64,000 nucleotides of DNA, taken from NCBI GenBank assembly GCA_977862235.1, contig OZ374562.1, positions 434,001 to 498,000 of the forward strand, in the 5' to 3' direction. The DNA comes from Dudresnaya verticillata (taxonomy: Eukaryota). The notes under the pieces were generated by a model, which had not been told where the DNA came from, made no database searches, and saw nothing but the letters and a program-made list of their open reading frames with translations. Shown one piece after another: positions 10,246 through 42,014 of the stretch (the stretch's first letter is position 1; each line of letters opens with the position of its first letter). Made by a program: the position numbers and the translations under genes.

Positions 10246-11026
10246 CTTGGCTGGCGCGCTACTCTACACACTGTACAGATACTCACTAAAAATAGAGAAT
10301 AAATACTACAAATACTCCGCTACGGTTGGTGCGTTACACTGCTGTACAGCAATGCGTACCAGCGTACAGCAATGCGCACAACATCCGACACGGTTACACG
10401 TTTCCAGATTGTAAGGAAGGACCTTTTGGGTCTCTTGTGAACTCAAAGAGTGCACTCAATGAGAAAGCCGCAGCGCGGGTGCCTGGTAGCGGTGGTAGAG
10501 CGGGAGGAACCCAGAGGGTAGACGAGGGCACGTAACCTGATTGGAAGCACGATACTGAAGGTAGTTCACTGGGCGGGCAGTTAACCGGGCACGGGTGACA
10601 AGTGTGCTGTGGTGCCGATAGCTTGGAGACGTAGTTGGGGCCGGAAGGTGCTTACCTTTACTGTTCAGTGACCGCTACGGGAGATACCCTTATATGGTAT
10701 TCCGACTGTCGGGCAGCACCCCTCATACTGGGCTATATACACGCCCCCTATCCTAAGCTATAATTTCTAAAATAAATAGGCAGATACTAAGCTACTGACC
10801 TGCAGGATGACACTTGGACCAATCATGGGCTACCAATCTTGTCCCTGCTGGCGCCCTATAGGTAACGCTATTTCTGCGCATACAGCGGGCAGAGGGCCCA
10901 CTTTGTGACTTCTGTAAGCCCTTCACTGTATTACACAGATCATCAGCGTGGCGTACTGCCACATCATCCGTTACGGTTGGCTCGCCGTCGGCGTGCCGCA
11001 TGCGCGCCACAGCTCACTTCACCACA
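10246..11026 (-). repeat. 3' LTR remnant of element B (interrupted by solo LTR 10410-10935)
   Basis: Ends CTCACTTCACCACA as at 42001-42014; ~90 bp near-identical to ~41785-41870; adjacent PPT. Confidence 0.8.
10410..10935. repeat. Solo LTR, 526 bp
   Basis: TGTAA...TTACA termini; 5-bp TSD CAGAT (10405-10409 / 10936-10940). Confidence 0.85.
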
Positions 11027-11165
11027 GACCCCCCTCCTTAAATGGCGCCACGTCCTCGGGCGCCGACCGTCACGGATCTCTATCGCTTCCCCACCCACGC
11101 ACACACACAACCGATACGGAAGTGTTCTCATCAGTCCCTTCCCTTTCTTGCGCGCTTCTCCCACC

Positions 11166-12776
11166 ATGTCAGGGGAGAAGACCAAGCGCTCACCGTCGCC
11201 CTTTCAACCGACACGGCGTTCCCGCGCGGCTTCCACGACTAGGGCGCAGGGCGCGCTAACCGTTACGGATGCTTCGACTCAAGCACCGGCTTCTTCCTCG
11301 GCGGCAGCGACGCGACCCGCAACGGGCGGTCGTACGAGCGTTGCCGTGACGGAACCTTCATCGGCTCCATCAGCGGGCCGAGGTTGGTCTGTCTATGATC
11401 CGAATCGGTTTGCTGCGAGCGCAGCCACAAGGACCGCGCTACCAGGGAGTGTAGCGACCCACCGTGACGGAGAGGCGCCAACCAAGGACCGCGATGATGC
11501 ATTCCGTCGTGATGGCGAGGAGCTCAGCTTGGCAGACCTACCGGCCATTCCGTTACGGGCACCATCGACACCGGTATCGACGCCGAGTCGTAGGATGGTG
11601 GCGAGTCCACATCCTTCATCAAGTACACCGAGACGGATGCGTGGGCCCCCGCAAATCAATCATCCTGCACCGGGGCCTTGGTGGCCGGTGGTTCATACCC
11701 GTGACGGAGAGGGCCCTGCCCCGAGTGGTTATTGGCCGGGGCACCACTTTGATCATCGCGCGAGGCGCCCGGCTAGAACCGATGCGGAGAGGGCAAAGAT
11801 TAAGCCCCCGATGACGGCGGACTACTTCATCGAGAAGTATCCAACCGTCTTGGAAGCAAGAAGGTATAAGGCCGTCATGGCGCAACCCTTCAAGGCGAAT
11901 CAACGCATTGGCGTTGTTCCGAATCGGAGAGAATTTGTATGGCAAAGCCGATGGGTGCATGGCTATTGTCAAGCGCGGACCTCTACCGTTTCGGATTTGT
12001 TGTGGTATCGCTGCCATGGGGAGGTAGGATATACCGCAAAGGTGAGTCACCTGTTGGCCAAAGGTTTCCGTCTCCGGGGTGCGCCGGTCGGAGTGCAATT
12101 CATTTGCTTCGACCGCCCCTATGACCAGTCGGTATATTGGTTCAGCTATGCCGATGGGTGGAAGGACGATGCCGCGACGGAACACCGTTTGCGAACTCGT
12201 TCCCGTCACGGAATGCAAGTTGGCTCGCCAATCCTGCATACTTGGAACACTAAGGAGTTCTTCCATCTTCCGTATCGGGTGCGTCGTGAACTGTACCTTA
12301 CAGCTCCGTCATGGTGGGATCGTTATGAGGTGACCCGTTGGTTGTCTGTCCCCACACCTTCTGTCGTGGCATACTTCTCGGCGGACCTACTCACCGAACG
12401 GGAGTGGAATCACAAACATCCGAACGGAGAGCGCCCCCCGAATCAAGATCAGCTCGATGTATTGTGGCGCATCTTCCGATCGGAATGGGCAATGCTAGTG
12501 CTCTTCTCGTGGCTCCAGGTGGCCTATTACGGAGTACGGAATAATACCAAGTTAGCCGACTGGCGATGCTTCCCACGGGATGAGGATGACCTGCCCGGAG
12601 GAGACTGTGGCCGTATTTTTCAACTTCCCGTAACGCTGATCGCCCTCATTCGCCAAGTCGGCGTAGCCGATTTGGTGACGGGGTCGTCGTATCCTCTGCA
12701 TCGGGTTGAGCGTCTTTTATCCGTACACGGAGAGCAGGATTGGCAACGCACTCCGGGCTTCTTGGGGTATAGTTGG
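11166..12776 (+). pseudogene. Element B antisense accessory ORF, part 1 (537 codons)
   Basis: ATG 11166 (MSGEKTK); open until the element A insertion; rejoins 25930 in frame after removing A and one TSD copy. Confidence 0.8.
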
Positions 12777-13614
12777 TGTGGCATAGCTGTAAGACCAGCT
12801 GTGCCACGCACGCGCAGCTGTAAGACCAGCTGCGCCACGTGTGCACTGCTGTGCGCACGCTGTCAGCCGGTGGCGCCGAAGCCCCGCTGAACTGTAAGGG
12901 AGTGCGCAGTGGCGCCCACGTGTACACGCGTTCGCGTGTGACACTGAAACTCCCATGTAATTTCTACGTTTATTGTTTTGTGAGTGTACAGCACCCTCTA
13001 GTGTAAGCGGCGGTCGAACGCCCTGCTGTCCCGCGCGCTGTGCGCACGCACTCCGGCGCAGAGCCGTTGAGTGCGTGACACGCGCGCGCGCACTCCGGCG
13101 TCGAGCCGTTGAGTACGTGTGGACCGTTCCGCCTACGCGCGCCCCCGGGTTACCGTTACCCGTACGCGTCGACGCGTGTTGGGGCGCGCCGGCGCACCTC
13201 CCGGGTTGGTGCCGCCGCAGGCCCTGTAGTATATCTAGTAGTCGCCCCTCTGGGCTGCAGTAAACCAAGGCAAGCCAGCCTACGCCAGGCTTGCCCTTTC
13301 TGCTTTGGGTTTCTTTCCCAGTCCTTCGCCCTACGGCTTCCCTCTTTCCCTAGCCGTCTAGGCTTTCCTTTTCCTTTCCCTACCGTCGGCTTCGTGCCTC
13401 CCCACGACGGGGACGCAGGGATCCGGCCGCTGCCGCCCGCGTACGGTACGCCCCGTGCGCGCTCAGGCTTCGACGCCGTTGATCCGCGACCGTCGACGGC
13501 GCGCGCGGCCGACACCACCGCTCTACCACCACAGCTACCACCCTTCGACGGGTCTTGGCGCGACTGATCGACCAGCGCAGCTAGACGTCAGTTCGACCTG
13601 ACGTCTATGCCACA
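12777..13614 (+). repeat. 5' LTR of element A
   Basis: Direct repeat of 25087-25924. Confidence 0.97.
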
Positions 13615-13615
13615 C

Positions 13616-13631
13616 TGGTCTCCCGACCTAG
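13616..13631 (+). promoter_or_regulatory. Primer-binding site TGGTCTCCCGACCTAG (probably tRNA-Tyr)
   Basis: 1 nt after the LTR; the first 10 nt are complementary to a ...CGGGAGACCA tRNA 3' end as in yeast tRNA-Tyr. Confidence 0.75.
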
Positions 13632-13682
13632 AAGTCGCAGAAGACCCTATCACCTCTCGCGTCGACGCGATCGAGGCCAAGA

Positions 13683-16097
13683 ATGCCGCCGCTACCTACT
13701 TCGGCCGCTGCCGGTCCGGCAGACGCCGCGGCAGGTGAAGTTGGCGGTCGACGCACTTCCTTGCTGAGTAACGTCGGCGTCTCAGGAGCTCCCCTAGAGG
13801 AACCGCGCATCGAGCGCAGGGCGGCTATAGCCAAGGCCCTAGGAGGGACAGCGGTCTCTGCGACCGACCTCCAGCTACTCTACGAGGAGACGATGGACTC
13901 CTTTTCGGAAGTGTACGACACCTTCATGGCCTCAGTCGCAGACGCACGGGCACAAGGTCAACGTGACCTGGAGTCGCTTCGACGCGGAACTCTCGCCTCC
14001 GTCGAGGAAGGATTAACCCGAACTCAAGGGCTCCTCGACGAGCTACGCCAACGCGTTGAGTTGATTGAGCACGCACCGGCGCGGTATGACCGACGGGCGC
14101 CTAGCCCGTCGCCGGGGCGGAGCCGTCCTCCGCGATCGCCGTATCAAGCGGATCCGGTTCGCGAACTGGCCAAAGCCCTCCTCGCTGAGCGTCGTGCTCA
14201 GCGAAACCCTTTTTCTCCACCGGCCTCTCCGCCTAGGAGTGGGCAAGGGTCCCCTCGCCCTACAAGAGATGACGACCCTTCTACGGGGTCGACCCCAAGC
14301 TACTACGACGCGCCCTCGACGGGCGCGGAGTTGGAGGGGCGTCTAGCCCCTCACCACACGAAGGTCCCGTGTCGGCCTACTGGCACTGGGGGCCATTGAT
14401 GCCGGGCGTCGAGCCGCCGAGCACCTTGGTCCCCGAATTCGCGAAGGCGATCGACTACCGCTCCTATCGTCTAGACGACATAAGGCAGCGGGACAATCAG
14501 CAGCAAGTCTGCAATGGCAACACCGCCAAGATTGTCAGCCGGATGAAGGCTCTCATGCCGCGGCTAGATCGCTACGACGGCAAGGAGCCCATCCGCTTTC
14601 TTGGCGTGCTTAGACAGCTACGCCAAGCCTTCAACGGCGTCGGCCTGTCGGAAGGCGCAGCGGCGCGAGTGGTGTCCTGGTTCCTAGACGGAACGGCATC
14701 CCAGGTGTATTCGAGTCACCTTTTCTCGGGGGTCCGGACGACTAGTCGCGGCACCCCCCCGTGCTGGGCCTCGGTGGTCAATACCCTCGTCGAGAGGTTC
14801 GTCACCGACGACGTGATCGCCGACGCGCACGACCGACTGACCACCGCCCGGCAGTGGGACGCCGAGTCAGAACTCGAGTTCGCCTCTCGTCTAGAGGGCT
14901 ACGCCGATGACTGTGCCGGCGTCTACTCCGACGAGAACCTGACGCACCAGTTCTTGCGTGGTCTGCTTCCGACCACCCGACCCGCAGTAGCGGAGAAGGT
15001 AAGGCAGATGCCGATGGTCGAGCAGACCAACTTCAGTACCGTTCGTCGGATCGCCCACAGTCACAACCTACCGCGCCCGCATGGCCAAGGCGTCGACGCC
15101 GGCCATCGTTTCGGGGCGCGGTAGGGGAAGCAGTTCGCCAAGCGGCCGCACGCTGCTTATCGAGGCGCCACACACACCCGATAGGGAAGCGGCCTTCGAC
15201 GGCACGATGTTGGTGGCGCCCGATGACGATGGTTTCGAACCCGTCATGGTCGTGCCCGCGCTGTCGACAGCCGGGGCGGCGCAAGCCGAGGAGACCCTCG
15301 ACATCTCAGGACGCATCGACGCTGTCCTGCCGAGGAGGATCCCTCCGCTCACACCGGCGCAAGAGGCCATGGCCCGCGCTGTCACCCCTGATCGACAGGG
15401 GTGGTACATCTGCTGGTTCTGCCGAGAACTTGGGCACATCATGTACTCGTGCCCATTCCTGACTAAGGAACAGCAGTTGTACTGCGCGTATGCGAACTGC
15501 AGCCATAGACTGGAGACGCAGCCGCACGCGCGCAACAACTTGCAGCAGCTCATCGACGAGCGCATGCCGGCAGGCGCCAAGGCAAGTTACCCCGCAAGAC
15601 GCTTCGACGCGCAGCGGGGTGGGGCCCGACGCTTCGACGATAGGGGTCCCCCGCAGCGCTTCGACGCGCAAAGGTATCGCGGGGAGCCGCGACAGTACCG
15701 CGGGGATCGTCGAGATCCGCGCCGCGAATACCGAAGGGCAGACGTCCCGCGGTTCCTCACTCGCGACAAGCGGGTCGGGTTTGACGACCAAGCCGGTCGC
15801 CAACCTCGGGCGTCGACACCCTCGAGGCCCGACCCGCAGCGCGAACTGCTTCGGGCAGTGATGACCGTGCAGGAGCACACCGGTCTAGCAGCCGACGAGT
15901 GGCTCCCGCGAGCGCTCGACGCGCAGAGCAAGGGCGAGTCCGCCAGGGGGCAGGTCGAGCAGCCCCCGCTCCTTTTTGACACGCCGCCGCGATCGACGCG
16001 AGGCGCCGGCCCGGCCCCTAGCCAGCCAATGGGATCCGAGGAAGATAGCTCGGATTCCGAAAATAATTTTGACCGGGTCGAACCGGAAAAAGAGTAA
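13683..16097 (+). pseudogene. gag: gag of element A, split by two frameshifts (13683-14399, 14369-15124, 15081-16097)
   Basis: DYRSYRL...YDGKEPI capsid-like region shared with B gag; CCHC knuckle CWFCRELGHIMYSC. Confidence 0.85.
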
Positions 16098-16111
16098 AGG
16101 CGGCGCCGTTC

Positions 16112-19100
16112 GTGCGGTCGCGCGCACCGTCTCTCTCTACCCCAGACCCACCATCCTCCGCCAAGCCGTCGGCGGTAGGCAGGACTTCGAGTCCCAACCA
16201 ACGAAAGACCCCCTCGCCAAGCAGCGCTGAGGGGCCGCTTTGCGACGAGCCGTCGAAAGCCACGCGCTCCAGGCCACCTTGGCCCCCGCGGCGTCGACGC
16301 AAGGGACAGGCACGACGCCGAGCGCATAGGGGTCCGTCGACGGATCCCGAGGCACCCTTCGCTCCACGCGAAGGTGCCATGGCTCTCTGCGTCGACGCGG
16401 AGCCGGCCACTACCCCCGACGGGTATGTGTGCCTCTTCTCCTCGGAGATATACCGCGTGTCTGGGTCGCTAGGCGCTGACCCAGGGGTAATGATACCCCA
16501 CACCATTGCGGTGGACACCGGCTCCGGGTACAACCTCATCGCGAAGCGGGCGCTGCCGCCCGGATGGGATCAGCACGCGGCGGCGATGGAGTCGACTCCT
16601 CGCCTCGCCGGGGCTGATAAGACCCCACTGAGCCTATCAGGGGTGGCGCACCTCTCGATGAGGTTGGGGAACACGACGTTCCGCGTGCCATTCATAGTGG
16701 CAGACACCTTGGCCGTCGAAGCCCTGGTGGGAACGCAGTTCCTCAATGCGCACGTGCGAGGCATCGACGTCGAGTCGAAACGCCTATCGCTCCGACGTGG
16801 GGGCTCGGTGCCCCTCCTCAAGCGCAGTAGGCCTGCCGAGGACCGCAAGCCGTCATCGAAGCCGAAGAACCCGTCGACGGGTTTGTCGAGGAAGCACCAG
16901 AGGGAGCTCCTCGACTGGGATCACGACACCCACACCATCCGCCTCTCTAGGCAGATGGTGCTCCCAGCCTATTCCCAAAGGCTCGTCTCCGTGACTTCAG
17001 GAGCCAGTGGGCTGATCCACACCGAACCCAAACCCTCGTTGCAGTTCCGCCACGGCGTGAGACTTACCAACGGGGTGCACGACGTCGAGTGGATGCGACC
17101 TTTCGGGGTCATCGTCGGGAACTTCACCGACAAGCCTCGGACCCTGCCTAAGGGTACCGTTGTCGGCTACGCGGTTAGGAACCCGGTGGCACTGATAACT
17201 CCAGACCGCAAAGTCGCGGAGGAGTTTGGGCGGGTGATGAACATCACCACCCTACCACCACGGGGGCAGAGGCCCCCGGTCAATCAGGGTGCCGTGGAAC
17301 CATCCACCTCGCCGTCGACGGCGAAGAGCACCGACGCCCAGCCGCTGCAGGGCGCAGCTACCGCCGCAGCGAAGGCCAACCCGTCCGTCGAGGACTGGGA
17401 GGCGCAGGTCAACCTCTCGTCTATCGAAGACGAGGTGACCCGCACGGAGGTCCTCTCCATGCTCAGGAAGCATCAGTCCATGTGGGACGGGAGGCTGGGC
17501 ACTATTGCCGCCACCCGACACCACATCGACGTGGAACGGGGCACTCGCCCCATCCGCTCCATGCCCTACCGACAGGGCCCTGCCATGCGCAAGCTGGTGC
17601 AGGACGAGGTGGATAACATGCTTCGTGCAGGGGTTATCGAACCCGCCACCTCGGAATGGGCATCGCCAGTCGTCCTGGCGCCCAAGAAGGACGGCACACT
17701 TAGGTTTTGCGTGGACTATCGACGTCTCAACACGAAAACACTAAGTGATGCGTACCCTCTACCGAGGATGGACGACTGCATCGACAGTCTAGGCGACGCA
17801 GCCGTCTTCTCGACGTTGGACTGCAACGCGGAGTACTGGCAAATCCCTGTCGCAGAGGCTGACAGGGATAAGACCACGTTCACTTCGTTCTTAGGGACGT
17901 TTCGCTACTTGCGAATGCCCTTCGGGCTGAAGAACGCCCCCGCGACTTTCCAGCGCGCACTAGACATCATCCTCAGCGGATTCCGATGGCAGTGCTGCCT
18001 GATCTATCTAGACGATGTGATCATTTTCTCGCGGTCGATCGCGGAGCACGTTGGTCATTTAGACCAAGTGCTGACTCTGTTGCACAAGGGAGGAGTATCC
18101 CTGAAACTGAAGAAGTGCCACTTCTTTCAGTCACGCGTTGGCTATCTCGGCCACGTCATCGAACCGGGGAAGCTACGCATGGCGCAGACGAGCAGCGACG
18201 CTTTCCGCCATGCGCAGTTCCCGACCTCCCTGACTAAGGTGAGGTCGTTCCTCGGCGCGTGCAATGTCTATCGCCGCTTCCTGCGCAACTTCGCGAAGAT
18301 CGCGCGTCCTCTGACGAACATGACCCGCAAAGACGCGGATGTGGATTTCGACAATCCAAGCGCCGACGCGCTCGAGGCATATGAGACGCTCCGAGCGAAG
18401 CTCATATCGCCCCCTATCCTACGGCTCCCCAAGACGGGTAGACCCTACGTCCTCGATACGGACGCATCGGCTTATCAGCTCGGATGCGCCCTACTGCAGG
18501 AGCAGGAGGACGGCCAGCTACACCCAGTCGGGTACTGGTCCTACTCGCTCAACTCGGCGGAACGGAATTACTCCGCCACTGAGCGTGAGTGCTTCGCAGT
18601 GGTGTGGTCGATCACAACCCTGCGGCCATACATCGAAGGCACGCGATTCACGGTTCGAACCGATCACGATGCGCTTCGATGGCTGATGTCGCTGACCGAC
18701 TCTTCGGGTCGACTGACCCGGTGGCGCCTGCGGCTCGCGGAATTCGACTTCCAGATCGAGTACCGCCCCGGGCGGGTACACCAAGTCCCGGATGCCCTGT
18801 CCCGCTTGGTTCGACCCCAGCGGAAACAGGAGGAGGTTGACGACGACGTCCCTACCTTTGACCCCCCGGCGGTCGACCGCCCGCAAGGGGAGTCCTCGGC
18901 TGAGACGCCGGTGGCACGTCCGGGTACAGAACCCGCGGCTCCCGTCTTGGTAACCACACGCTCGCGGTCCAACGCATCTACGCGTTCGGCCCCAGCGCAG
19001 CCCGTTCCGAAGCCAGTCCGTGTAAGCATCACCGGCACCGCGCCCAAGACGGGCGCGGCAGATGAACCCCCGGACTTGGCCGACGAAGCGGCGTGGGACG

Positions 19101-20821
19101 ACACCGACGACGTCGACCTCTTCGATCTCCTCCGCGTCGACGCGGGCGACGAGCCATCGGACTTGACGTCCGTGGAGCCAGTGAAGCTCCCTTCACCTAT
19201 TTCCGTCGAGGAATTTGTGGACGCGCAGCGGCACGACTCCTTCTGCCAGACCGTACTGGCCAGGCAGTCCCGTCGACGGGATAGCCATTTTTACGAGGAC
19301 GGGGATGGGCTTCTATGCCGCCATCATCCGGTCATAGCTTCGCTAGACCAGATAGTGGTGCCCGAGTCGTTACAGCCTCGGCTGCTCACGCTCGCGCACC
19401 ACTCCCTCCTCGCGGGCCACCCAGGGCAGAACAAGATGTTCTATTCCCTGCGTGAGACCTACTACTGGCCGCATATGGCGGCCAGCATCGCCATGACAGT
19501 AAGAAACTGCAGGCACTGTGCCCGTAACCGCATTCGACTGCGCAGACACCTTCATAGACTGAAGCTGTTCCCGGCCACCAGGCCGCTGGAATCCGTTGCT
19601 ATCGACATACTGGGCCCCTTGCCCAAGACCAAGTCTGGTCGCAAATTCCTCGTCATCATGACGGACCGCTTTACCAAGCTAACGCAAGTCGCGCCTCTGC
19701 GCACCATTACGGCTTACAACGTCGCAGTTGTCTTCTGTGAACAGTGGGTCTTCCACTACGGGCCGCCTAGGTCCTTGCTTTCCGATAACGGAAAGCAGTT
19801 CACATCGAAGTTCTTCCAAGCCGTCTGCCGGTATTTGGGTTTGAACAACGTGTTCACCTCCGCGTATCACCCCCAGTCGACTGGGCAGGCTGAACGCTAC
19901 AACCGGACCGTCATGGCCATGTTGAGGAACTACGTCAACGATCACCAAAACGATTGGGATCGCTACGCCTCTGCGTTGACGTATTCCTACAACTGTCACG
20001 TGCACCGCTCGACGCGGACGACTCCATTCAGCTTAGTGCTGTCACGGCCTCCGCCGGAATTTACTAAGTTTCACTCGGCGGTCGACCGCCCGAAACCTAG
20101 TGAGGATGTCCGAACGGACTTCCTCAAGCGGTTAGACACCGCTATGGGCCTGGCTTCTGCCGCCCTGGCCAAAACGCAGAGGCGTTACAAAAAGGACTTT
20201 GACCGACGGGTCCGGAAGGTCAACTCCCGCATCAAGGCCGGAGACTACGTCTTCATCGACGCAACTGACGGGGTGACGAAACCACCGAAGTTGCAGAGCC
20301 CGGCCATCGGGCCTTATCGCGTGCTGCTCAACGACGAGCGCACGTTGTTTATCGACAGAGACGGCCTGGTCGAACGCATCGCAGCGGACCGAGCCGTCTT
20401 CTGTCCCCCGCCTCTGCGGGAAGACACCGCGCGTCGAAGCGCGTACTTGCCCACAGCTAACGATCTCGCGTCCAAGGCCGTCGACGGCCCGCGGTTCGTG
20501 GTGGACAAGGTACTTGACTATGGCACGGCCGAAGACGGCACGATGCTCTTTCAGGTCAAGTGGACCGGCTACTCTAAGCCCACTTGGGAACCTCGATCCC
20601 ATTTGCCGGAGGAGATGATGAGCCAATACTTCCGCGCGAAGAAGCGTCGGAAGGACTCTGGGCTCGACGCCCCATCCCCTCCACTCGCCCCCTCGGCGGG
20701 GCGCCTCGTGCTTAAGGAGGGGGCCCCAGGCATTCTTTGCCTCAGGCATTCCTTGCCTGTTATTACCCTCATCCAGGCATCCTTTGCCTTTTTCCCAGCG
20801 ACGGGAACACGTGGGGCCTAA
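16112..20821 (+). CDS. pol: pol of element A: PR-RT-RNaseH-IN-chromodomain (in -1 frame relative to the gag end)
   Basis: VDTGSG protease; RFCVDYR, MPFGLKNAP, YLDD; DTDAS RNaseH; HHCC plus DDE integrase; GPY; VDKVLD..VKWTGY..TWEP chromodomain. Confidence 0.97.
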   Translation: MRSRAPSLSTPDPPSSAKPSAVGRTSSPNQRKTPSPSSAEGPLCDEPSKATRSRPPWPPRRRRKGQARRRAHRGPSTDPEAPFAPREGAMALCVDAEPATTPDGYVCLFSSEIYRVSGSLGADPGVMIPHTIAVDTGSGYNLIAKRALPPGWDQHAAAMESTPRLAGADKTPLSLSGVAHLSMRLGNTTFRVPFIVADTLAVEALVGTQFLNAHVRGIDVESKRLSLRRGGSVPLLKRSRPAEDRKPSSKPKNPSTGLSRKHQRELLDWDHDTHTIRLSRQMVLPAYSQRLVSVTSGASGLIHTEPKPSLQFRHGVRLTNGVHDVEWMRPFGVIVGNFTDKPRTLPKGTVVGYAVRNPVALITPDRKVAEEFGRVMNITTLPPRGQRPPVNQGAVEPSTSPSTAKSTDAQPLQGAATAAAKANPSVEDWEAQVNLSSIEDEVTRTEVLSMLRKHQSMWDGRLGTIAATRHHIDVERGTRPIRSMPYRQGPAMRKLVQDEVDNMLRAGVIEPATSEWASPVVLAPKKDGTLRFCVDYRRLNTKTLSDAYPLPRMDDCIDSLGDAAVFSTLDCNAEYWQIPVAEADRDKTTFTSFLGTFRYLRMPFGLKNAPATFQRALDIILSGFRWQCCLIYLDDVIIFSRSIAEHVGHLDQVLTLLHKGGVSLKLKKCHFFQSRVGYLGHVIEPGKLRMAQTSSDAFRHAQFPTSLTKVRSFLGACNVYRRFLRNFAKIARPLTNMTRKDADVDFDNPSADALEAYETLRAKLISPPILRLPKTGRPYVLDTDASAYQLGCALLQEQEDGQLHPVGYWSYSLNSAERNYSATERECFAVVWSITTLRPYIEGTRFTVRTDHDALRWLMSLTDSSGRLTRWRLRLAEFDFQIEYRPGRVHQVPDALSRLVRPQRKQEEVDDDVPTFDPPAVDRPQGESSAETPVARPGTEPAAPVLVTTRSRSNASTRSAPAQPVPKPVRVSITGTAPKTGAADEPPDLADEAAWDDTDDVDLFDLLRVDAGDEPSDLTSVEPVKLPSPISVEEFVDAQRHDSFCQTVLARQSRRRDSHFYEDGDGLLCRHHPVIASLDQIVVPESLQPRLLTLAHHSLLAGHPGQNKMFYSLRETYYWPHMAASIAMTVRNCRHCARNRIRLRRHLHRLKLFPATRPLESVAIDILGPLPKTKSGRKFLVIMTDRFTKLTQVAPLRTITAYNVAVVFCEQWVFHYGPPRSLLSDNGKQFTSKFFQAVCRYLGLNNVFTSAYHPQSTGQAERYNRTVMAMLRNYVNDHQNDWDRYASALTYSYNCHVHRSTRTTPFSLVLSRPPPEFTKFHSAVDRPKPSEDVRTDFLKRLDTAMGLASAALAKTQRRYKKDFDRRVRKVNSRIKAGDYVFIDATDGVTKPPKLQSPAIGPYRVLLNDERTLFIDRDGLVERIAADRAVFCPPPLREDTARRSAYLPTANDLASKAVDGPRFVVDKVLDYGTAEDGTMLFQVKWTGYSKPTWEPRSHLPEEMMSQYFRAKKRRKDSGLDAPSPPLAPSAGRLVLKEGAPGILCLRHSLPVITLIQASFAFFPATGTRGA

Positions 20822-25074: not shown

Positions 25075-25083
25075 GAGGGGGGG
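25075..25083 (+). promoter_or_regulatory. Polypurine tract of element A
   Basis: GAGGGGGGG 3 nt before the 3' LTR. Confidence 0.8.
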
Positions 25084-25086
25084 TTG

Positions 25087-31800: not shown

Positions 31801-33135
31801 AATCTATGCACTCATCCATCCTAGGCAAGGGATATGAGTCCCTAACCGTTACGGAATTGAGCCTTCTATAGTCAACACAGAACCGCATGGTGCCGTCCTT
31901 TTTTAGAACGAAAACCACGGGGCTGGCCCACTCCGATGAGGCCGGTTCAATTACCTTAGCGGAAAGCATGCGATCGATTTCTGTCTTTTCGAGATCTCGC
32001 TGCTTATGTCCGGCACGGTATGGGGCTTGATATACTGGCTTAGCTCCGGGAGTTAACTCGATGCGGTGCTTGGCAGCTGTAATGTTGCCAAGATCGCCAC
32101 TCCACATCGACTTATATTCCTCGAGTAGGGTTAAAATCCGTTTGTGGAGCGATGCTTCTTCTGTGCCGATCTGGACTTGATCCTTCCAGTCGGTAGTATT
32201 TGTATTTTCGGTTACGGGTTTGCTTACTTCCTTGTCGTGAGGGGAGATGCTGCTGGCCTTTTCGGAGGTAGGGTTAGAATTAAATGATTGAATAATTCCT
32301 CCCCCTCCTTAAATGGAGGTATACCGTCAACGGTAAAAATAGCAGATGGGGCAGCAGTAGCGAGGCCCACGACAGTAGATTTGGGCAACCGTACCGGCTT
32401 GTTAGAAAACTTAGAGACCCAGATCCGAAACGGTTTGTTTGGTACAACATCCATAATACCATTAGCCATTAATGTAAGGTGCTTAAAAGCCGGCTTTGGA
32501 TGATTTTGTAGAAAGCATAACCCACCCGTGGGGGTATTAACCGTTACGGTGGTTTGAGTCACAGGGGGAATAAGGGTAGATTTTGCTAAACGAAGTTTCT
32601 GAGAAACCGTAGCGTTAGAGAGAGGTGAGGGCTGTAGGGTTGCAGTGGTTCCCGTCTTCGGAATTTTGGCTTGACCAACAAGGGATACCGGTGGGTAATG
32701 ATGAAAAACAACTTTCCGTAACGGAGGGAGTATTGCCTTCACGTAGCGGTCGATGAAGGTAGTTCCCAAAATACAGGGAGCCGCCAAGTTCGCGACCACT
32801 AGAAAATGGACGCGAGCACGGAGCTCTCCGATACGGACGAAAAGTTGGATCTGACCAAGAGGGCGTATAGCGCGATTAGACGCATCCCGTAATGGAGGAC
32901 TGGATGCTGGGCGTATGAGTGGGAGCCATTGGCGCGGAAGGCGCCTGGCACTAATGAGATTGGGCCCAGCGCCAGAGTCCAAGACGGAGATTAAAGGAAG
33001 CATCACGCTATCTGTCCGTCCCACGGTAATTTGCATCTTGTAATTTTGATGTTGCATAAAGAAGATAGTATCATTGGTCTGATAAGCCAATGGGAGTTCC
33101 GTAACGGTATCTCGCCGATCCCCTGGCGGGTCCAC
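28859..33135 (-). pseudogene. pol: pol of element B: PR (32224-33135), RT-RH-IN (29171-32107), chromodomain (28859-29161)
   Basis: VLDSGAG; LDCNSGYWQ, YLDD, DTDAC, integrase core, GPY; YVIDKIV..YKVRWYGY..TFEP; one frameshift and one in-frame stop. Confidence 0.95.
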
Positions 33136-33349
33136 ACTCGCGAGAGGTGGAACGCCGTGAGGCGGGGATGGCGGCGCCCTAACGCATCCCCCTTGAGTTT
33201 TCCGAATTCAAGGTTGCACCAGTCGGATCCGCCTCCATGGGCTCGCGCAATTCTGCGAGTTCCACTCCGTCATGGTCCTCCACCGATAGTATCGGGGCAT
33301 TCCGTTGCGGAGGGGGCTTTTGCGGTCTGCCCCTATTCCCTTGCGGATT

Positions 33350-35659
33350 CTAACTGGTTCCTACTACGAACCTGCGACCTACAGGGTAGTGCTTCTGGAA
33401 GTTGCGCTCGCGCTCTTCCATAAGCCTAACCCGATCGGAGTCATGTATCCAGGGGCAAACAACGCGCTCTGGCGAAAGGCAGATGCGACAGTTACCACTT
33501 CCGTAAAGGCGTCGGACCCGAGGATTCGACTCATCCCGTAGCGGAGGTGCTGGTTGCTGCTGTCCTCGCCCATCGTGGGCATTATTTCCGTAACGGTGAC
33601 TCAGCTGCTGTTGGGGGCCAGGAGCCGGGCGAGATCCACCATAGGGGGGACCTTGCGCGCGTAGCATCCTGGGCGGAGTAGGGTGGACGCTTTGCGGGGG
33701 CGAGGAGTACGGGGTAGAAAAGGTAACCCCCGTGCTCGTTCCCGTAGCGGCACCGTGACCTCCCTCGACGGCTAGCACTTTATTATCCGTAGCGGAAAGA
33801 TTCCCTTGCGACTCATAGTTTACATCCGATACGGAATCCAGCGACAACACCTTAGACGGGCGCGCTTTAGTGCGCCCATCAAAGACGTGAGCCGGAACGG
33901 TTTGACGTCGAACTGCCCGATGGGACTAACCCAGGCCAGTCGCATAGCGAGTGATGGCCTGATAATCCAACTGGCAATGCGCCGCTAGACAATTTCTCAT
34001 CTGTTGACGAGTACCCGGTAGGAGTCCTTCAACGAACAGTGACTTCAATGCCCGATCGGAAAATACTGTACCGCAACGGAGAGCCTTGGCCCAGAGCTGG
34101 TTCGAGAACTGCTCTTCCGTCATGGCGGATGTTTGCCTGAAGTTACTGACATCCGTATAGGCTTCAGCAATCACTTCATCCGTAGCGTAGGTTCTCAATA
34201 AAAAGTTCACCACCTCGGAATATGTGCGGAACATCTCAGCCTGCTCCACGTCAACCGCCATGGTACCTCCAGCAAGCCTAGCCTGTAGAAGGGCTTCGGC
34301 CTGTCCTTTAAGGAAAAACTGGAAGCACCAGACGGTAACCCCTTCGGCGATGCCGTTGATGTTACAACCGTCACGGAGCTTGGCGAGAAATCCCAAGGCG
34401 GTAATAGGGTCCGTCCCATCGAATGTATGGGACGACATCTGGACGTCGAGTTTCTTCCGTATACGGCTCATGTTTTGTGAGAACTTAGAGCCGTATGTTT
34501 TACTCCTCTTATCCAATCGGTAGGTGCGGTAGTCTAGCGCCTTGACAAATTTGTCATGTAGCGGCCGGATTACCTTCACCTTTCCGGATTTGGCACCGTG
34601 TTTTCTGGCCCGGTGCCTATTCTCTCTATCCGTTACGGAAGAACTCTCTGAGTCTGAATCCGTAGAGGTAGAGGAGTCATGCCTTTTTTCGCGTTTCCGC
34701 GATCTTCTGTTTCTCCTCTTGCGGCGGCGGTGTTGGCTATCCTCTGAGCTGCTCTCATTGGATTCCATACCGGATTGGTGGCGTCGTCGCTGGGTGTGGT
34801 CGCCCATGTGCGACCGACGGGGAGGGTCAGAGCGGGAGTGTCGGGCATCTCGTTTATGCCGACCTCGACCGGTCCTCCAACTCGGATGGGGTGAGCTGGA
34901 CGCATCGCTGAGATGGTCGCTGCCTCCACCTGATCGAACCGGAACGGTATAGCGCTCTTGCTGATAACGCCCTGGCGTAGGCACATCTACGCGTCCAGGC
35001 GAATACCGTAACGGTGGCTGGGTGTGTGTTGGTCCCGTAGGGGCGTGTTGATGTTGAGAATCCGTTACGGGAGCCGGTGGCAGTGGCCCAGAGGGTACTG
35101 TGCCCGGCGGCAATCCCATAACGGGGGGTTGTTGCGGCTGCTGCGTTCTTCCCTCGACCGGGAAGTCATTCCGTAACGGTGGTTGCTCAGTGAAAGCTTC
35201 CGTAGCGGGAGGCCTTGCCATGCCGGGAGCAATCTGGCTCTCGAGCTCGGCGGCCACCTTTTCCTGTAGGATCAAAGCTTGCACTATCCGAGGAAGGTGC
35301 TGCTCCAGATAGGAATTAACCAAAGACGGAACAGTTTCCGAGAGGGATATCTCCACCTCTTTTACCATTCCAGGTTGTACTTCCAATCGGAGATGCTCTA
35401 ACACCCTAGGAAGGACCTCCGACAGGACCCAGTGGACCCGATGGGATTCCGGCTTGGGTTGCGGAACTGCCTTCGTGGAGGCGTCTGATCCGACACGGGA
35501 ACGGGGAGCTTTACCAGCAGCACCCTTTAGGATGTCTTCTGGGTTCTCCACTCCGGAACGGATTTCACCTCCTTCACTGCGCAGACTGCGCGCAGCGGGG
35601 GTAGTGTCACCCGCTTTAGGTTCCGTAACGGGACGGTCTGCGTGTTCTTCGTTCTGCAT
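33350..35659 (-). pseudogene. gag: gag of element B (disrupted)
   Basis: LDYRTYRL, FDGTDPI, FLLRTYATDEVI capsid-like region; degenerate knuckle CRICLSPERVVC. Confidence 0.85.
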
Positions 35660-35786
35660 GATGCCTTAACATAACACAACGGTTGTTCTTGCTTGTCTAT
35701 CCAATATTCCGTAACGGGTTGTCGGTACAGCCGAATTCCTACCGTAGCGGATTTCGACGGCTGTTTCTTCCAACCGTGACGGTGTT

Positions 35787-35802
35787 CTAGGTCGGGAGAC
35801 CA
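35787..35802 (-). promoter_or_regulatory. PBS of element B (identical to the PBS of A)
   Basis: Reverse complement reads TGGTCTCCCGACCTAG, 5 nt from the LTR. Confidence 0.8.
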
Positions 35803-35833
35803 AAAGATGTGGTGTAGTGAAAACCCACGAACT

Positions 35834-38800
35834 CTTTGAGATTAGCGAGACCCCAGGAGGAACCCTGATGGGCGTGAAGGAGATAGCGGTAAAACTGTTT
35901 GGCGATGTCCAGGAGCTGGTTATGTACTGTGTTATCTTGTTGTTTACTTGTGCAAGTCTTGAAGGGACTTATATGCACTTTTGAGTTCAGGGAAACCTGC
36001 CTAAACTGAACTCCCCCTGTCCTGCGCGCCACGAAAGTGGCAGGAGGCGCGCCAGGAACATCATAAGCGTTCCATAGCCACTCTACGCTACTCAACGTAA
36101 AGTACTATCTATAGAACCGCTTGATTTCACTAGTCCAGGAGACCTTTACGAGATCTCCTGACAGACAATTCATTCCTCAGGTGCTGCCAACGTGAATTCA
36201 GGAATCACTTCCTGGTCCTTCCTGGAAGCTGTCATTATGTCTTCATCAAAATCCAGATGCAAAAATTACATCTCTTGAATTTCTCCTGTCATCCACATCA
36301 ATTCCTGACAACTCCTGTTGTAGCTGTGCCACTCCTGACACGTACCATGAATTACTATGCGCGACCACCGTACATACACTATACCATCAACACCCCCTCT
36401 TGCGGTGTGAGCCTTACTTCGCCTTGACGACATCCTGCAGACGCAATACTCCCATGCCTGTTCTATGCTTCTCGAACAGAACTCTTTGAAGAGGCTTCGT
36501 CAGTATATCTGCTCCCATCTGCTCTGTTGGACAGTACAGGAGGTTGATGATACCCTCCTGTACGTTGTTTTTGACGAAGTTTCTGCGGATGGAAACATGC
36601 TTGGCATGTCGAACACCTTCTGTTCCCCAAACCAAAGCTCCCTGATTGTCTCCTAAAATAGTCGTGTTGGCTTCCGGACGACTTTCCAGCTCGCTCAGAA
36701 GCTTCCGCAGCCACACGACCAACTTCACACCTTCGCTCATCGCGCAATACTCAGCCTCAGTAGTTGACAGGGCGACACCGCCTTGTTTCACCGTGCGCCA
36801 TGCTACTGCAGCACTACCCAGCAGCATCAGGATCCCTGAAGTCGACTTCCTGTCGACTCTGTCCCCATCCCAGTCAGCGTCACAAAACGCCTTCAGCACA
36901 CACTCCTGGTCGGTCAGGAGCCTGAGGGAGTACTCTGCAGTTCCTCTAAGATACCTCAGGATCCTCTTGAGTCCGATCCAGTGTACTTGTCTAGGACTTG
37001 CAGCAAACCGGCAAAGTATGCCCACTGCTGCACTGATGTCCGGCCTTGTTCTTGTAGCAATGAAAAACAGACATCCCAGGACTTCCTGATAAATCTTGAC
37101 GTCTGATGGAGGACCAAATCCGAAAATTCTCGCAGCGCTCCCTCTGCCATAGGGGTCTGCACCGGTTTGCAAGTTTCCATCCCAAACCTGTTCAGGACTT
37201 GTAGAACATAGTGTGTTTGGGACAGCCAAGCCCCCTCTTCATCCCTGATGAACAAAACCCCCAAGAAGGAGCGCAACGAACCCAGATCCTTAACATCCAG
37301 GTGTTTCCCCAACTCCTTCTTGGTCTTGAATACTGCTTCCAGATCACCCATCAGGATAACATCATCGACATACAGAAGGATCCAAACCTTCCTTTGTCGA
37401 TACACACAGCTGTCAGATATCAAGCTGTCGAAGCCTAGTATTTCCATTATGGATTCCCACTTGTCATGCCACAAACGTGGTGCCTGCTTGAGTCCGTAAA
37501 GCCCTCGACGAAGCTTCAGGACCTTTCCTGGCTCACAAAGAGTGAGCCCCGTGGGCGATTTGATGTATACCTCTCCATCAATCTCTCCGTGAAGAAAAGC
37601 GGTGCGAACATCCATCTGTTGAACGCAATACCCCCTCTGCACCACCACCGCAAGGCAGGTGCGAACCGTCGCGAAGTCGACGACTGGAGCAAATGTCTGA
37701 TCAACGTTTCCTTGCAAAAATCCGCGGACGACCATCCGGGCCTTGTACCTGATGACCTTTCCTGACTCGCCCTTCTTGCGAAGAAATATGAATCTAGTAG
37801 ATAACGGACGAACTCCCTCAGGTTGCCGCACTACTTCCCAGGTTCCATGCTTCCTGAGTGACTCCAGCTCAGAATCAATGGCCTCTTTCCAATGTTGGGC
37901 GTGGCTGCTCCTAAGGGCTTCCTGTACTGATGACGGTTCCTGTTGCGACGCCTCGGTCATCACTAGAGCCCTTGCTACCGATCCAGAGTAGTAAGAAGGT
38001 GCCCTACGCTCACGTTGAGGATAACGACGAGCCTCTGTCTCATTCCGAGGGTAGTGTGTAACCATCTCCTGATGGCCTTCTACGTCTCCTGTTTCCCCTT
38101 CTTCTCCTTGAGCATCTCCTTGATCATCATCAGCAACATCATCTTCTTGAACAGCATCATCCAAGTCTCCTGCATCATCCAGATCTCCTGTATCATCAAC
38201 AAAATCTTGAACAGCATCTGAGTCTTCTTGAGCATCAGAACGCTTTCCTGAATGCCCTTCCTGAACCCCATCAGGAGTTGTAAGACCTTTCTCTTCCTGC
38301 ACAGCCGGCTCATCTTCTTCTTCAGCCAGCAGCGGTGCAGGACCAATACTGACAAAGTCTTTCCTGCTAGGAAACTGACTTTCATCCACTGTGACATCTC
38401 TAGATACCACAGCTATGCTCTTAGACGGTAACCAGAGCTTGTACTGACTATTCTCCAGACATCCAACTATGATGCCAAGTTCCGACTTGGCATCCATCTT
38501 CTTCCGATACTCCTTCGGAATGTGGTACCAACCAAAACACCCAAAGACCTTTAGAAATTTTGCGTCAGGCTTCTTCCCCGTGATCATCTCGTACGATGTC
38601 TTCTTACTATCCTTGGGACAGAAGAACATGTTCCTGATCTTTGCGGCATGGACCACAGCTTCAGCCCAGAACCTCCTGGGCAACGACGCGTGCTCTAGCA
38701 TCGTCCTGGCGCACTCCATGATAGTGCGGTTGGCTCTCTCTGCCATCCCATTCTGATTAGGAGACTTAGTAGGAGCCATACTCTGCTCGATCCCTTGCTC

Positions 38801-41363
38801 TGCGAGATACGATTTCATACCAACGTACTCACCACCACCATCACTATGTAGCCTCTTGATCTTGCAGTCGAACTTCCTCTCCAACCAGGCTTGGTATATC
38901 TTGAAGTTCTGAAGAACCGAGCTCTTCTTCGCGATAGGTACCACAACAAGGTACCCACTGTACTCGTCAATGAAAGTGACGAAATACCTGGCTCCTCCAA
39001 AAGAGCGAACAGACATCGGACCACAAACGTCCGAATGAACTACAGCGCACCTCTCTTGAGTCCTGTTTTTGTTCATGCGCAACTTCTGCCTTGTCTGTTT
39101 TCCCTTCATGCAACTCTCGCATTAATTGGTGCCACTCCTGGGCAACCCGAAGCTGATCCCCGTCACAGCTCCTGTCTTGAGCAGTCTCTTGACGCTCTCG
39201 AGGTTGGCATGCCCTAGTCGTTCGTGCCACAACCTCAAACCGGAATCTTCCAGCTCACTGTGCCTCCCTCGAGACACTGCAGCACGTCCTGAGTGCTGCC
39301 CGGGGTGTACAGGAGTTGCCTTAACCTTGTACACTCCATGATTCACCTTCCCCAGAAAGTGAATGACTTCTGAATGCACTCCTACACACTTCGTACGTCC
39401 AATCTTGATGTCATACCCTTCTTCACACAGTTTCGAGCATGAGAGAAGGTTGGTGTGCAGCTCCGGGATATATAGTACCCCAGGAATAACTAGAATGCGT
39501 TCATCGTCCTGCTCCTGTCCAACGAAGGTCTGCAGGACCAGTGTTCCGCGATGCTTTGCGAACACTTTCTCGCCGTCTCCCAACATGATAGCCCTTGGCG
39601 CGATCTCCTGACAATCGCGAAGCCACTCCTGGCTCCATACCATGTGGTCCGAAGCTCCTGAATCCAACAAAAATGTGGTAGGGCTCCTGGTCATGGGCTT
39701 TTCCATGACTGCGGCGTAGTCTGAGTCACAATCGTAGTGACTACAGTAGACTTGGTATTCCACGTCCTCCTGGTATACAGGACAGTCCTCGTAAACATGT
39801 CCCTTTGACAAGCAAGAGAAACAGGTCTCGTCCTGTTCGCACATCGGCTCGAGTCCAGGTTCCTGACAGCAGTCCACAGCGGTCAACAGCTGCGCCCTCT
39901 GGGCGTTCCCACCATCCCCGGATTCGTTCTTCTTCTTGTCCTTGTACCTCTCTTGACAGTCCTTGATCAAGTGGCCAACCTTGTCACAGTAAAAGCATTT
40001 CCGCTTCTCCTGGTTCTTCTTGTTACCCTTCTTCCCGCGACCTGCTCGATGCCCACCGCCACTTGCAGTAAGAGCTTGGCCTTTCTCATTGGCCTTGGGA
40101 GCCTTCGTCCCTTTCCTGAGCAATTGGTCCTCATACTCCTGAAGGAGGGTTGACGTAGCTGTCTCCCAGTCCAGGACCTCCTGGCGCGACTGTAGCGATG
40201 CCAGGACGTGTCCAAAAGGCGAGATATTCTTGTCTCCGAAGGAGGCCAAGAGCATAGCCACTTGCATGTCATCCGCGATGGTACTCTCCATCGCAGCTAG
40301 TCGGTTGAATATCTCCTCGAAGGAATCAACGTAGTCCTGCATGGATTCCCCTGAATAATTCATCCGGGCCAACTTGGTCTGCAGCTGGACCCTGGTAGCC
40401 GTGTTCGATACGGCGTACCGGTCCTTCAGATGCTGCCACATACGGTATGGGTTCTCCTTCACGCTCAAACAGAGCCTCAGCGGTCGATCTCCTAGCCCTT
40501 GTATCACAACAGCGCGAGCCGTCGTAACCTTCTTCCTGATATCATCACTTGACACCTCATCCTGGTCCAGGACGTCTGACGTCACAACATCAAGAACGTC
40601 CTTGGCTTCAAGCGCAGCGTCCGTGCGCGCACAACAGAGATGAAAGTCTTCTCCAGGTTTACCGTAGAACTTGTAAACCTTTTTGCTGTCCTCCATGACC
40701 TAGCACAGTAGTAATGGCAAAGCCTTGACAACTTTCGAAAATCATAACCGAACAGGAAGATAGTGCAATACGATCAGCAAAGAGCGAGGGCTGGGCCCAT
40801 AACCCTTTGAGATTAGCGAGACCCCAGGAGGAACCCTGATGGGCGTGAAGGAGATAGCGGTAAAACTGTTTGGCGATGTCCAGGAGCTGGTTATGTACTG
40901 TGTTATCTTGTTGTTTACTTGTGCAAGTCTTGAAGGGACTTATATGCACTTTTGAGTTCAGGGAAACCTGCCTAAACTGAACTCCCCCTGTCCTGCGCGC
41001 CACGAAAGTGGCAGGAGGCGCGCCAGGAACATCATAAGCGTTCCATAGCCACTCTACGCTACTCAACGTAAAGTACTATCTATAGAACCGCTTGATTTCA
41101 CTAGTCCAGGAGACCTTTACGAGATCTCCTGACAGACAATTCATTCCTCAGGTGCTGCCAACGTGAATTCAGGAATCACTTCCTGGTCCTTCCTGGAAGC
41201 TGTCATTATGTCTTCATCAAAATCCAGATGCAAAAATTACATCTCTTGAATTTCTCCTGTCATCCACATCAATTCCTGACAACTCCTGTTGTAGCTGTGC
41301 CACTCCTGACACGTACCATGAATTACTATGCGCGACCACCGTACATACACTATACCATCAACA
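35834..41363 (-). mobile_element. Full-length Ty1/Copia LTR retrotransposon (5.5 kb)
   Basis: 559-bp LTRs 35834-36392 and 40805-41363, apparently identical; TSD GAACT; PBS GGTTATGGGCCCAG (40791-40804); PPT 36393-36403. Confidence 0.96.
36414..40696 (-). pseudogene. Copia gag-pol with two frameshifts (39122-40696 gag-PR; 36956-39109 IN-RT; 36414-37229 RT end-RH)
   Basis: CCHC knuckles, LDSGAS, WHERLGH, HSDVCGP, SDGGGEY, LYGLKQAP, YVDD, TRPDI, STTEAEY, ADILTK. Confidence 0.93.
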
Positions 41364-42014
41364 GAACTCCGAGACGGACAGCTGGCCTGACTTTCCTTAA
41401 CGGACGAGAGAAACACTACCTCCACGGGGTGGTAGAGCAGTTCGCACCGTAACGGGAGAACAGCTAGCGGCTAATCGAGACGGATATTGGGAAGCAACAG
41501 ACAAGGGGGTGGTACAAGTGCCGGGACGGACTCCGTAACGGTGGTGATGGTAGACCGCAACTGTGGTAGACCGCAACGGGCTCGGCGCGGGGAAAACCGT
41601 AAAGGATTGGGCTAAGGTTGCTTACACGTTTACCTTAGGAGCTGCTGCGGTGCCGCCCTGATATACAAGTCAGGGTGGCACCGAGCGGTCCGGTCCGTGG
41701 GGGCCAGACCCTAGTGGTCTGGTCCTATGGTGGAATCGGCCCTGCTGGTCCCAATCTCCGACACGGACATGCGCAGCATTCTCATTGGCTGGCGCGCTAC
41801 TCTACACACTGTACAGATACTCACTAAAAATAAAGAATAAATACTACAAATACTCCGCTGCGGTTGGTGCGCTCCACTTCTGCACAACAATGTAAGCCAT
41901 CACACAACAATGCACCCAAGGCCGAGACGGATACACGTGCACAAATCCCACAACGGTTCAGGCCACACTATATGCATTTCCACCGTTTCGGATGCCCAAT
42001 CTCACTTCACCACA

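What the first reader, a model, noticed from the sequence alone, without database searches (positions are those of the whole stretch)
10246..42014. Candidate system: chromoviruses pairing an antisense accessory protein with a private palindromic DNA barcode
Seen: two related Gypsy elements (same PBS, same layout) each have (i) a ~930-960 aa antisense ORF between pol and the 3' LTR and (ii) a different CG-rich palindrome scattered densely from LTR to LTR (B: CCG-N3-CGG; A: CGTCGACG). The motif switches at the insertion junctions 12777 and 25924. Established: Arabidopsis VANDAL transposons encode VANC proteins that bind family-specific short motifs accumulated in the element to remove silencing; plant Retand/Grande elements have antisense ORFs of unknown function. 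Inference: the antisense proteins may be rapidly diverging sequence-specific factors that recognise their own family's motif (anti-silencing, transactivation or packaging). Alternatively, the motifs recruit host factors.
Basis: partly seen in the sequence, partly recalled or inferred. Interest (0 to 1): 0.88.

Follow-up and report, generated by a model that had tools for sequence, protein, structure and literature searches.

The report
Retrotransposon lineages with private DNA barcodes
Two related jumping genes in this genome (probably an alga) each carry dozens of copies of their own short symmetric DNA signature, even inside protein-coding genes, plus a backwards-encoded protein of no known family that likely reads the signature, which would let each family recognise and switch on its own copies.

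Summary
Element B holds 56 of the window's 59 CCGWNWCGG sites (6 expected). Element A holds 26 of 29 CGTCGACG sites (1.7 expected). Both signatures stop at nested-insertion edges and exceed synonymous-codon shuffles inside pol. A's signature is not a fixed word: it is a (G/T/A)TCGAC core between variable but complementary 3-10 bp arms (52 sites). Among 80 related metagenome loci, three further lineages carry their own core-plus-arms class, confined to the element, strand-symmetric and without G.U excess (72 G.T, 72 A.C), which points to DNA rather than RNA. The antisense ORFs (B 957 aa, A 932 aa) belong to one unnamed family: B clearly, A remotely. It is found in 31 of 35 relatives, is under purifying selection, evolves several times faster than pol, and has no Pfam or fold match. 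The link between protein and signature is not shown: several ORF-bearing lineages have no clear signature, and no ORF-less control lineage was found. Best reading (0.42): VANC-like self-recognition by the antisense protein. Rivals: Gag/RT/IN signals, a host factor, templated mutation. Not a VANC or Retand member.

The parts
12777..25924 (+). Element A, Gypsy chromodomain retrotransposon, inserted in B's antisense ORF; 52 core-plus-arm sites counting one LTR
   Evidence: LTR pair, TSD GTTGG, PBS, PPT; Pfam; sites
12777..13614 (+). A 5' LTR (3' LTR 25087-25924, 1 mismatch in 838)
13616..13631 (+). A primer-binding site TGGTCTCCCGACCTAG, shared with B
13632..16097 (+). A gag region, in three overlapping frames in this copy; zinc knuckle weak
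16073..20821 (+). A pol (PR-RT-RH-IN-chromo), 17 hairpin-type sites
21961..24754 (-). A antisense ORF, 932 aa read with X at one frameshift; conserved core about 22900-23739
10247..42014 (-). Element B, Gypsy chromodomain retrotransposon with fixed CCG-(T)N(A)-CGG signature; carries five nested insertions
41364..42014 (-). B 5' LTR (continues 35808-35833 beyond the Copia); 9 motifs in 651 bp; PBS at 35802
28880..35665 (-). B gag, pol and chromodomain, with stops and frame changes in this copy
11166..12776 (+). B antisense ORF, first piece (537 aa) with the conserved core 11778-12776
25930..26199 (+). B antisense ORF, second piece
27791..28783 (+). B antisense ORF, third piece (low-complexity arm, coiled-coil-like helix)
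10247..11026 (-). B 3' LTR, truncated at 10247, interrupted by solo LTR Y
10410..10935 (.). Solo LTR Y, TSD CAGAT
26200..27785 (.). Solo LTR X, TSD CCTTC, free of B's motif
26615..27529 (+). Solo LTR D nested in X, TSD GATTA; third palindrome GTC-N3-GAC
35834..41363 (-). Copia element in B's 5' LTR, TSD GAACT; no antisense ORF and no signature (internal negative control)
42892..43738 (-). A-family solo LTR, 86% identical, keeps A's signature
42015..46368 (.). Remnants of a third family with a near-identical PBS (LTRs about 43830-44717 and 45386-46368) carrying GTC-N3-GAC

Best explanation
Elements A and B, and three lineages of relatives, are each saturated with a private dyad-symmetric DNA signature that is likely kept by selection and likely read on the integrated DNA by the element's own antisense protein, which would let a family recognise and activate or shield its own copies. 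Shown: the signature (fixed 9-bp palindrome in B; fixed 4-6 bp core between variable complementary arms in A and relatives), its confinement to the element, its excess inside pol, its strand symmetry, and a conserved fast-evolving antisense protein family. Inferred: a dimeric reader binds the dyad, extruding a short hairpin or cruciform in the variable-arm type; dense sites spread it over the whole copy; its long low-complexity arms then recruit or exclude chromatin factors, as VANC is reported to do; reader and signature drift together. Binding, expression and any effect on silencing are untested.
For: Signature inside pol beyond synonymous shuffles: B 15 vs 1.8, A 17 vs 1.1, 0 of 1000 shuffles. 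Arm covariation at 37 GTCGAC sites: 32/31/29/23 complementary vs 18.9/16.6/14.2/9.9, p at most 1e-4; none at 17 sites outside A or at 11 other palindromic hexamers. Diagonal pattern in pol: each of four core classes is significant only in its own lineage, 20 sequences tested. Sites stop at element edges in 7 relatives: 155 in 71.5 kb inside, 3 in 40.7 kb outside. Compensatory arm changes at 4 of 13 shared sites in clade C2. Four-fold sites in arms differ about half as often as outside in 3 of 3 clades. The core word itself is in excess in 4 of 4 C2 pol genes, p at most 0.008. DNA-level: 237 perfect, 72 G.T, 72 A.C; no significant strand difference in 7 tests; equal folding excess on both strands. 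Protein: 31 of 35 loci with at least 2.5 kb downstream hit the family; B core matches a profile built without B at E 1.9e-9; A core scores 32 against at most 21 for 100 shuffles and 52 control pieces; dN/dS about 0.2-0.5 against 0.05-0.13 for pol in the six more divergent pairs; pol 93% identical where the core is 69-75%. A third family in this window has a third palindrome.
Against: Lineages C3b, C4a, C4b and C7b have the ORF but no hairpin excess, and only C4b gives a weak (about 2-fold) cross-validated fixed word. L012 has dense hairpins with no loop preference. C1 and A show a general hairpin excess at all spacers, not only at the private core. The core has net charge -12 to +9. Signature style does not follow protein similarity: B (fixed word) is closer to the family-1 proteins of variable-arm lineages than A is. 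No compensatory sites in C1 (0 of 6) or C7c (0 of 7); the pairwise test was inconclusive. Pol and antisense trees are linked, so co-variation cannot single out the antisense protein. Relatives are not independent, and core classes were chosen on the same loci. Variable arms are unusual for a reader of B-form DNA (own knowledge).
Confidence: 0.42

Rival explanations
1. The signature is read in the particle by Gag/NC, RT or IN. It would act as dispersed packaging, genome-dimer (kissing or palindrome pairing) or cDNA-handling signals that keep each family's machinery on its own genome. The antisense protein does something else.
For: Variable stem with conserved loop, dispersed through coding sequence, is the design of dispersed packaging signals (PMC6281560, passages). 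41 of 52 A sites fold as the dyad hairpin in sense RNA. Loop sets closed under reverse complement are what loop-loop pairing would need (inference). Gag and Pol are present in every lineage.
Against: No G.U excess (72 vs 72), no strand bias, equal folding on both strands. B's 3-bp arms cannot form a stable hairpin, and B shows no folding excess. Lineages without signature also have Gag and Pol.
Confidence: 0.2
2. The variable-arm repeats are a mutational scar: template switching during reverse transcription or replication perfects quasi-palindromes, with loop preference set by each lineage's RT. They have no reader, and B's fixed word is a separate matter.
For: It predicts exactly Watson-Crick-only, strand-symmetric arms, compensatory changes and about halved divergence at arm sites. 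General hairpin excess in A, C1 and L012. Template-switch perfection of quasi-palindromes is known (PMC3820800, abstract).
Against: It does not create core words, yet the core is in excess in 4 of 4 C2 pol genes and in A pol. No 5'/3' arm polarity (114:95, 129:119, 56:53) and few multi-base one-arm changes. It cannot give B's fixed 9-mer (85 vs 8) or the GTC-N3-GAC family.
Confidence: 0.2
3. The signatures recruit different host DNA-binding or structure-binding factors (activators, insulators, silencing antagonists), each lineage having captured one.
For: B's word behaves like a dimeric transcription-factor site: invariant CCG/CGG, one tolerated inner mismatch, A/T flanks, both orientations 52:60. 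ORF-bearing lineages without signature fit a reader that is not the ORF.
Against: At least six different signatures across related lineages (three in this window) would need as many host factors. Host flanks lack the sites. It leaves the conserved, fast-evolving ORF unexplained.
Confidence: 0.18

Closest known systems
VANDAL/VANC anti-silencing system (Arabidopsis MuDR transposons)
   Same: Element-encoded, fast-diverging accessory protein; family-private short motif at high density; low-complexity variable regions (PMC5735166, abstract and Results part 2). A coiled-coil-like helix also occurs in A and B (crude scan).
   Different: Host is an LTR retrotransposon. Motifs are dyad-symmetric, lie in both orientations and inside pol, and do not arise as tandem repeats; VANC motifs are non-coding, tandem and co-oriented. 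No DUF1985, DUF287 or plant-mobile-domain match. Binding untested.
Retand/Grande/RIRE2/Boty antisense additional ORFs
   Same: Long antisense ORF between pol and the 3' LTR, conserved across a lineage, proposed regulatory role (PMC11963269 abstract and Discussion; PMC7264820 parts 1-2).
   Different: [quoted passage not shown]
Dispersed packaging signals of ssRNA viruses (MS2, HBV)
   Same: Many short stem-loops with variable stems and a shared loop motif, within coding sequence (PMC6281560, passages).
   Different: Here the sites are strand-symmetric and lack G.U pairs; B's signature is not a hairpin.
Coding palindromes of Nematomorpha mitochondria; quasi-palindrome template switching
   Same: Perfect inverted repeats inside protein-coding genes (PMC6649704, PMC3820800; abstracts).
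   Different: Arms here are 3-10 bp, not up to 284 bp repeats, and surround a lineage-specific core.

Membership tests
Ty3/Gypsy chromodomain retrotransposon | RT-RH-IN order with a C-terminal chromodomain | tested here: met
   A: (Chromo 28.1 bits, cut-off 25.1). B: Chromo E 2.7e-10 after an in-frame stop
Ty3/Gypsy chromodomain retrotransposon | LTRs, PBS, PPT, 5-bp TSD | tested here: met
   Complete for A; B has PBS, PPT and both LTR starts, but its left end is truncated so no TSD
Named plant chromovirus clades (CRM, Tekay, Reina, Galadriel, Tcn1) | Placement in the RT tree with reference members | not tested
   The tree held only unnamed relatives and one outgroup
VANC/VANDAL | DUF1985/DUF287 (MAIN-like) domains | tested here: not met
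   No such Pfam hit for 13 aligned cores at E 0.1 or for A and B cores at E 1
VANC/VANDAL | Encoded by a MuDR DNA transposon | tested here: not met
   LTR retrotransposon
VANC/VANDAL | Family-private short motif at high density in the element | tested here: met
VANC/VANDAL | Motifs non-coding, tandem-repeated, same orientation | tested here: not met
   In pol, dispersed (spacing CV 0.86-0.95), both orientations
VANC/VANDAL | VANC-like fold | tested here: inconclusive
   Models at pLDDT 55 and 50; best Z 3.0; no Foldseek hit at E 0.001
VANC/VANDAL | Protein binds the motif and removes silencing marks | not testable with these tools
   Needs EMSA, ChIP and methylome data
Retand-type antisense ORF | Conserved antisense ORF between pol and the 3' LTR | tested here: met
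Retand-type antisense ORF | TRP28/Transposase_28 domain | tested here: not met
Retand-type antisense ORF | Non-chromovirus lineage | tested here: not met
   Chromodomain in both elements
Dispersed RNA packaging signals | Variable stem, shared loop motif, dispersed in coding sequence | tested here: met
   A and clades C1, C2, C7c; not B
Dispersed RNA packaging signals | Specific to the packaged RNA strand (strand bias, G.U tolerated) | tested here: not met
Dispersed RNA packaging signals | Binding by capsid or NC protein | not testable with these tools
   Needs CLIP or assembly assays

The most novel reading that the evidence does not exclude
A whole Gypsy clade runs a self/non-self code written into its coding DNA: dozens of short extrudable hairpins or cruciforms whose loop is the family's barcode, read by an antisense protein of a new fold that changes specificity as lineages split. 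It would be the first retrotransposon anti-silencing or self-activation system and the first to read structure plus loop sequence.
Probability: 0.3. Interest if true: 0.93.

Novelty: new variant of a known kind. Interest (0 to 1): 0.8.

Why it matters
The function of antisense extra ORFs in LTR retrotransposons is an open question (PMC7264820, PMC11963269). Here two co-resident families give two proteins and two signatures, so a 2x2 binding test decides it.

Tried and rejected
No sequencing run was listed: expression, and whether the frameshifts are real, stay open. Direct BLASTP of the A and B antisense proteins found nothing; single-sequence searches found no homologue for B's core or for A's 592-aa part among 1.84 billion representatives. 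A profile search returned 6 unnamed proteins, all close to L063. Viral contigs gave no relatives. Pfam and PDB sequence searches were blank. Fold searches of two low-confidence models were blank, which is not evidence of a new fold. The protein atlas gave no answer. Homodimer prediction of the core: no verdict. No Rfam family or tRNA in the window. The host could not be named; 'alga, probably red' is inference from intron-free host genes and marine relatives. The pairwise compensation test was inconclusive because double transitions inflate it in control clades too. One regex test (B inner/outer) was miscoded and is not used. Rejected: GC or codon-usage artefact; tandem-repeat origin; a CpG-specific explanation (cores without CpG); B's ORF being two genes. 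Earlier findings: none by place or sequence; two unrelated prokaryotic notes. No supplementary files were read; they could hold unreported motif observations.
Full report
1. Anatomy. The stretch is a nest of LTR elements. Element A (12777-25924, plus strand) has 838-bp LTRs with one mismatch, TSD GTTGG, a PBS at 13616 and a pol with RT, RH, IN and chromodomain. It sits inside element B (minus strand, 42014 to 10247), which has the same PBS at 35802 and a chromodomain after an in-frame stop. B also carries a Copia (35834-41363, TSD GAACT), solo LTR X (26200-27785, TSD CCTTC) with solo LTR D inside it (26615-27529, TSD GATTA), and solo LTR Y in its 3' LTR (10410-10935, TSD CAGAT). B's left end is truncated and its LTRs are 81% alike over 228 aligned bases. 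Read with X at each break, B's antisense ORF is 957 aa and A's is 932 aa with one frameshift. The A and B pol cores are 48-54% identical.

2. The signatures are real. CCGWNWCGG occurs 59 times against 6.1 expected, 56 times in B. CGTCGACG occurs 29 times against 1.7, 26 times in A. CCG-N3-CGG is 85 against 8 in B and 0 in the nested Copia (that count still included X and Y as part of B). Both exceed synonymous-codon shuffles inside pol: B 15 vs 1.8, A 17 vs 1.1, 0 of 1000 shuffles. Spacing is close to random (CV 0.86-0.95) and tandem repeats do not explain it.

3. A's signature is a structure. Around the 37 GTCGAC sites the four flanking positions on each side are complementary far more often than shuffled partners give (32, 31, 29, 23 against 18.9, 16.6, 14.2, 9.9; p at most 1e-4). 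Positions 5 and 6 are not, nor are 17 GTCGAC sites outside A or 11 other palindromic hexamers in A. Accepted cores are GTCGAC, TTCGAC/GTCGAA and ATCGAC/GTCGAT, but hardly CTCGAC/GTCGAG; 38 sites with four perfect arm pairs use 25 different arms. There are 52 such sites in A, 0 in B, 1 in the Copia and 0 in 25.7 kb of flanks. B is different: invariant CCG/CGG, one tolerated inner mismatch, no arm covariation.

4. Relatives. One metagenome scan gave 80 loci of 519 found, at 47-56% pol identity; many are copies of the same family. None has a fixed word as strong as B's. Three lineages of the pol tree carry A-style sites with their own core: C2 xA(C/G)Tx (L058 has 51 sites in 10.2 kb), C1 C(W2-3)G, C7c CGNCG. 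Inside pol each class is significant only in its own lineage among 20 sequences: C2 4 of 4, C1 2 of 4, C7 2 of 3, A 1 of 1. The classes were chosen on these loci, so members of a lineage replicate but do not independently discover them. Sites stop at element edges: 155 in 71.5 kb inside, 3 in 40.7 kb outside, 7 loci, two with approximate edges. In C2, 4 of 13 shared sites have different perfect arms in different members; C1 0 of 6, C7c 0 of 7. Four-fold sites in arms differ 0.16-0.28 against 0.33-0.66 outside (pairs not independent). Lineages C3b, C4a, C4b and C7b show no hairpin excess; C4b has a weak fixed word.

5. DNA or RNA. Across A and 8 relatives there are 237 perfect four-pair arms, 72 with one G.T and 72 with one A.C. 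Loop words and their reverse complements close hairpins at similar rates (7 tests, p 0.07-1.0). Excess folding energy is equal on both strands (A -2.5/-2.6, L023 -5.9/-5.9 kcal per 60 nt; about 0 in L021 and L004). Selection on one RNA strand would be expected to admit G.U (own knowledge). The pattern fits recognition on duplex or extruded DNA, or a templated mutational process.

6. The antisense protein. 14 of 29 loci with at least 3 kb downstream have an antisense ORF of 500 aa or more, against 3 of 29 on the sense strand. 31 of 35 loci with at least 2.5 kb hit one of two profiles. B's core matches a profile built without B (probability 96%, E 1.9e-9). A's core matches the same conserved block weakly (score 32.2, probability 25%) but above 100 shuffles (maximum 21.4) and 52 control pieces (maximum 20.2); family 2 scores 29 on part of that block. 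The core is under purifying selection (dN/dS about 0.2-0.5, 0.66 in one decayed pair) and diverges several times faster than pol. The layout is a low-complexity arm, an aromatic-rich helical core of about 300 aa, and a low-complexity arm with a coiled-coil-like helix in A and B. No Pfam, PDB or fold match was found, with models at pLDDT 50-55. The core is not consistently basic.

7. Mechanism. I commit to self-recognition by the antisense protein (0.42). The determinant must differ between families in one genome (A, B and the GTC-N3-GAC family), the sites behave as DNA dyads, and the antisense protein is the fastest-changing conserved product. The steps from signature to binding to activation are inferred by analogy with VANC. 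The main weaknesses are ORF-bearing lineages without a signature, the lack of an ORF-less control, and linkage of all element genes. Rivals: signals for Gag, RT or IN (0.20); template-switch scars (0.20), which explain the Watson-Crick symmetry well but not the excess of core words or B's fixed 9-mer; host factors (0.18).

8. Comparison with the literature. VANC motifs are non-coding, tandem and co-oriented, and VANC has DUF1985/DUF287 (PMC5735166: abstract and Results part 2; PMC13547354: passages). Those features are not met, so this may work like VANC but is not a member. Retand-type antisense ORFs share the position but not the TRP28 domain or lineage (PMC11963269: abstract and Discussion; PMC7264820: parts 1-2 of 3). 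Dispersed packaging signals share the stem-loop design but not the strand symmetry (PMC6281560: passages). PMC3820800, PMC6649704 and 10.64898/2026.08.24.746577 were seen as abstracts only. Searches for this combination returned nothing relevant (listings only); the library lacks most subscription papers.

9. Verdict. Their pairing is a testable hypothesis. Novelty: new variant of a known kind, with a 0.3 chance of a categorically new structure-reading self-recognition system. Interest 0.8.

Noticed in passing
window 26615-27529, 43830-44717, 45386-46368, 42015-42890: A third LTR family with a near-identical PBS carries its own palindrome, (C)GTC-N3-GAC(G): 14 sites in about 3.5 kb against 0.1-0.8 per kb elsewhere. 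Same 3-nt spacer geometry as B. Some LTR sites are homologous positions.
   Followed up: partly
window 10247-11026 versus 41785-42014: B's LTRs are only 81% alike, yet its antisense ORF has no stop in 957 codons. B may be a chimera of two subfamilies rather than old.
   Followed up: partly
window 12800-13600, 14000-24900: A has a second hairpin class with 5-nt loops of the xxGAC/xxGGC type and 4-nt AGAG/CTCT loops.
   Followed up: partly
L012:1-3760: 64 hairpins with arms of 5 or more in 3.8 kb, mostly 3-4 nt loops, with no loop-sequence preference.
   Followed up: partly
window 11166-11800, 24400-24760, 27800-28500: The low-complexity arms of both antisense proteins are partly spelled by the DNA signature (PSTV/VDA in A; VTE/RDG/PLR in B), so they may serve as site reservoirs.
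   Followed up: no
window 13632-16097, 23710-23740, 29171, 36417-40699: Several frame breaks in A and in the Copia despite LTRs over 99.8% identical: assembly errors or defective copies moved in trans.
   Followed up: no
window 55806-62645: A second Copia family with about 1-kb LTRs in direct and inverted orientation, with 41-bp and 227-bp tandem units and PBS GGTTATGGGCCCAG.
   Followed up: no
window 35834-40800: The nested Copia is the only element with CpG depletion (o/e 0.69); A and B are at 1.13 and 1.05.
   Followed up: no
window 1356-8282, 50374-50958: Intron-free host genes: a PP2C phosphatase, two ORFs with no Pfam hit, and a bestrophin fragment.
   Followed up: no
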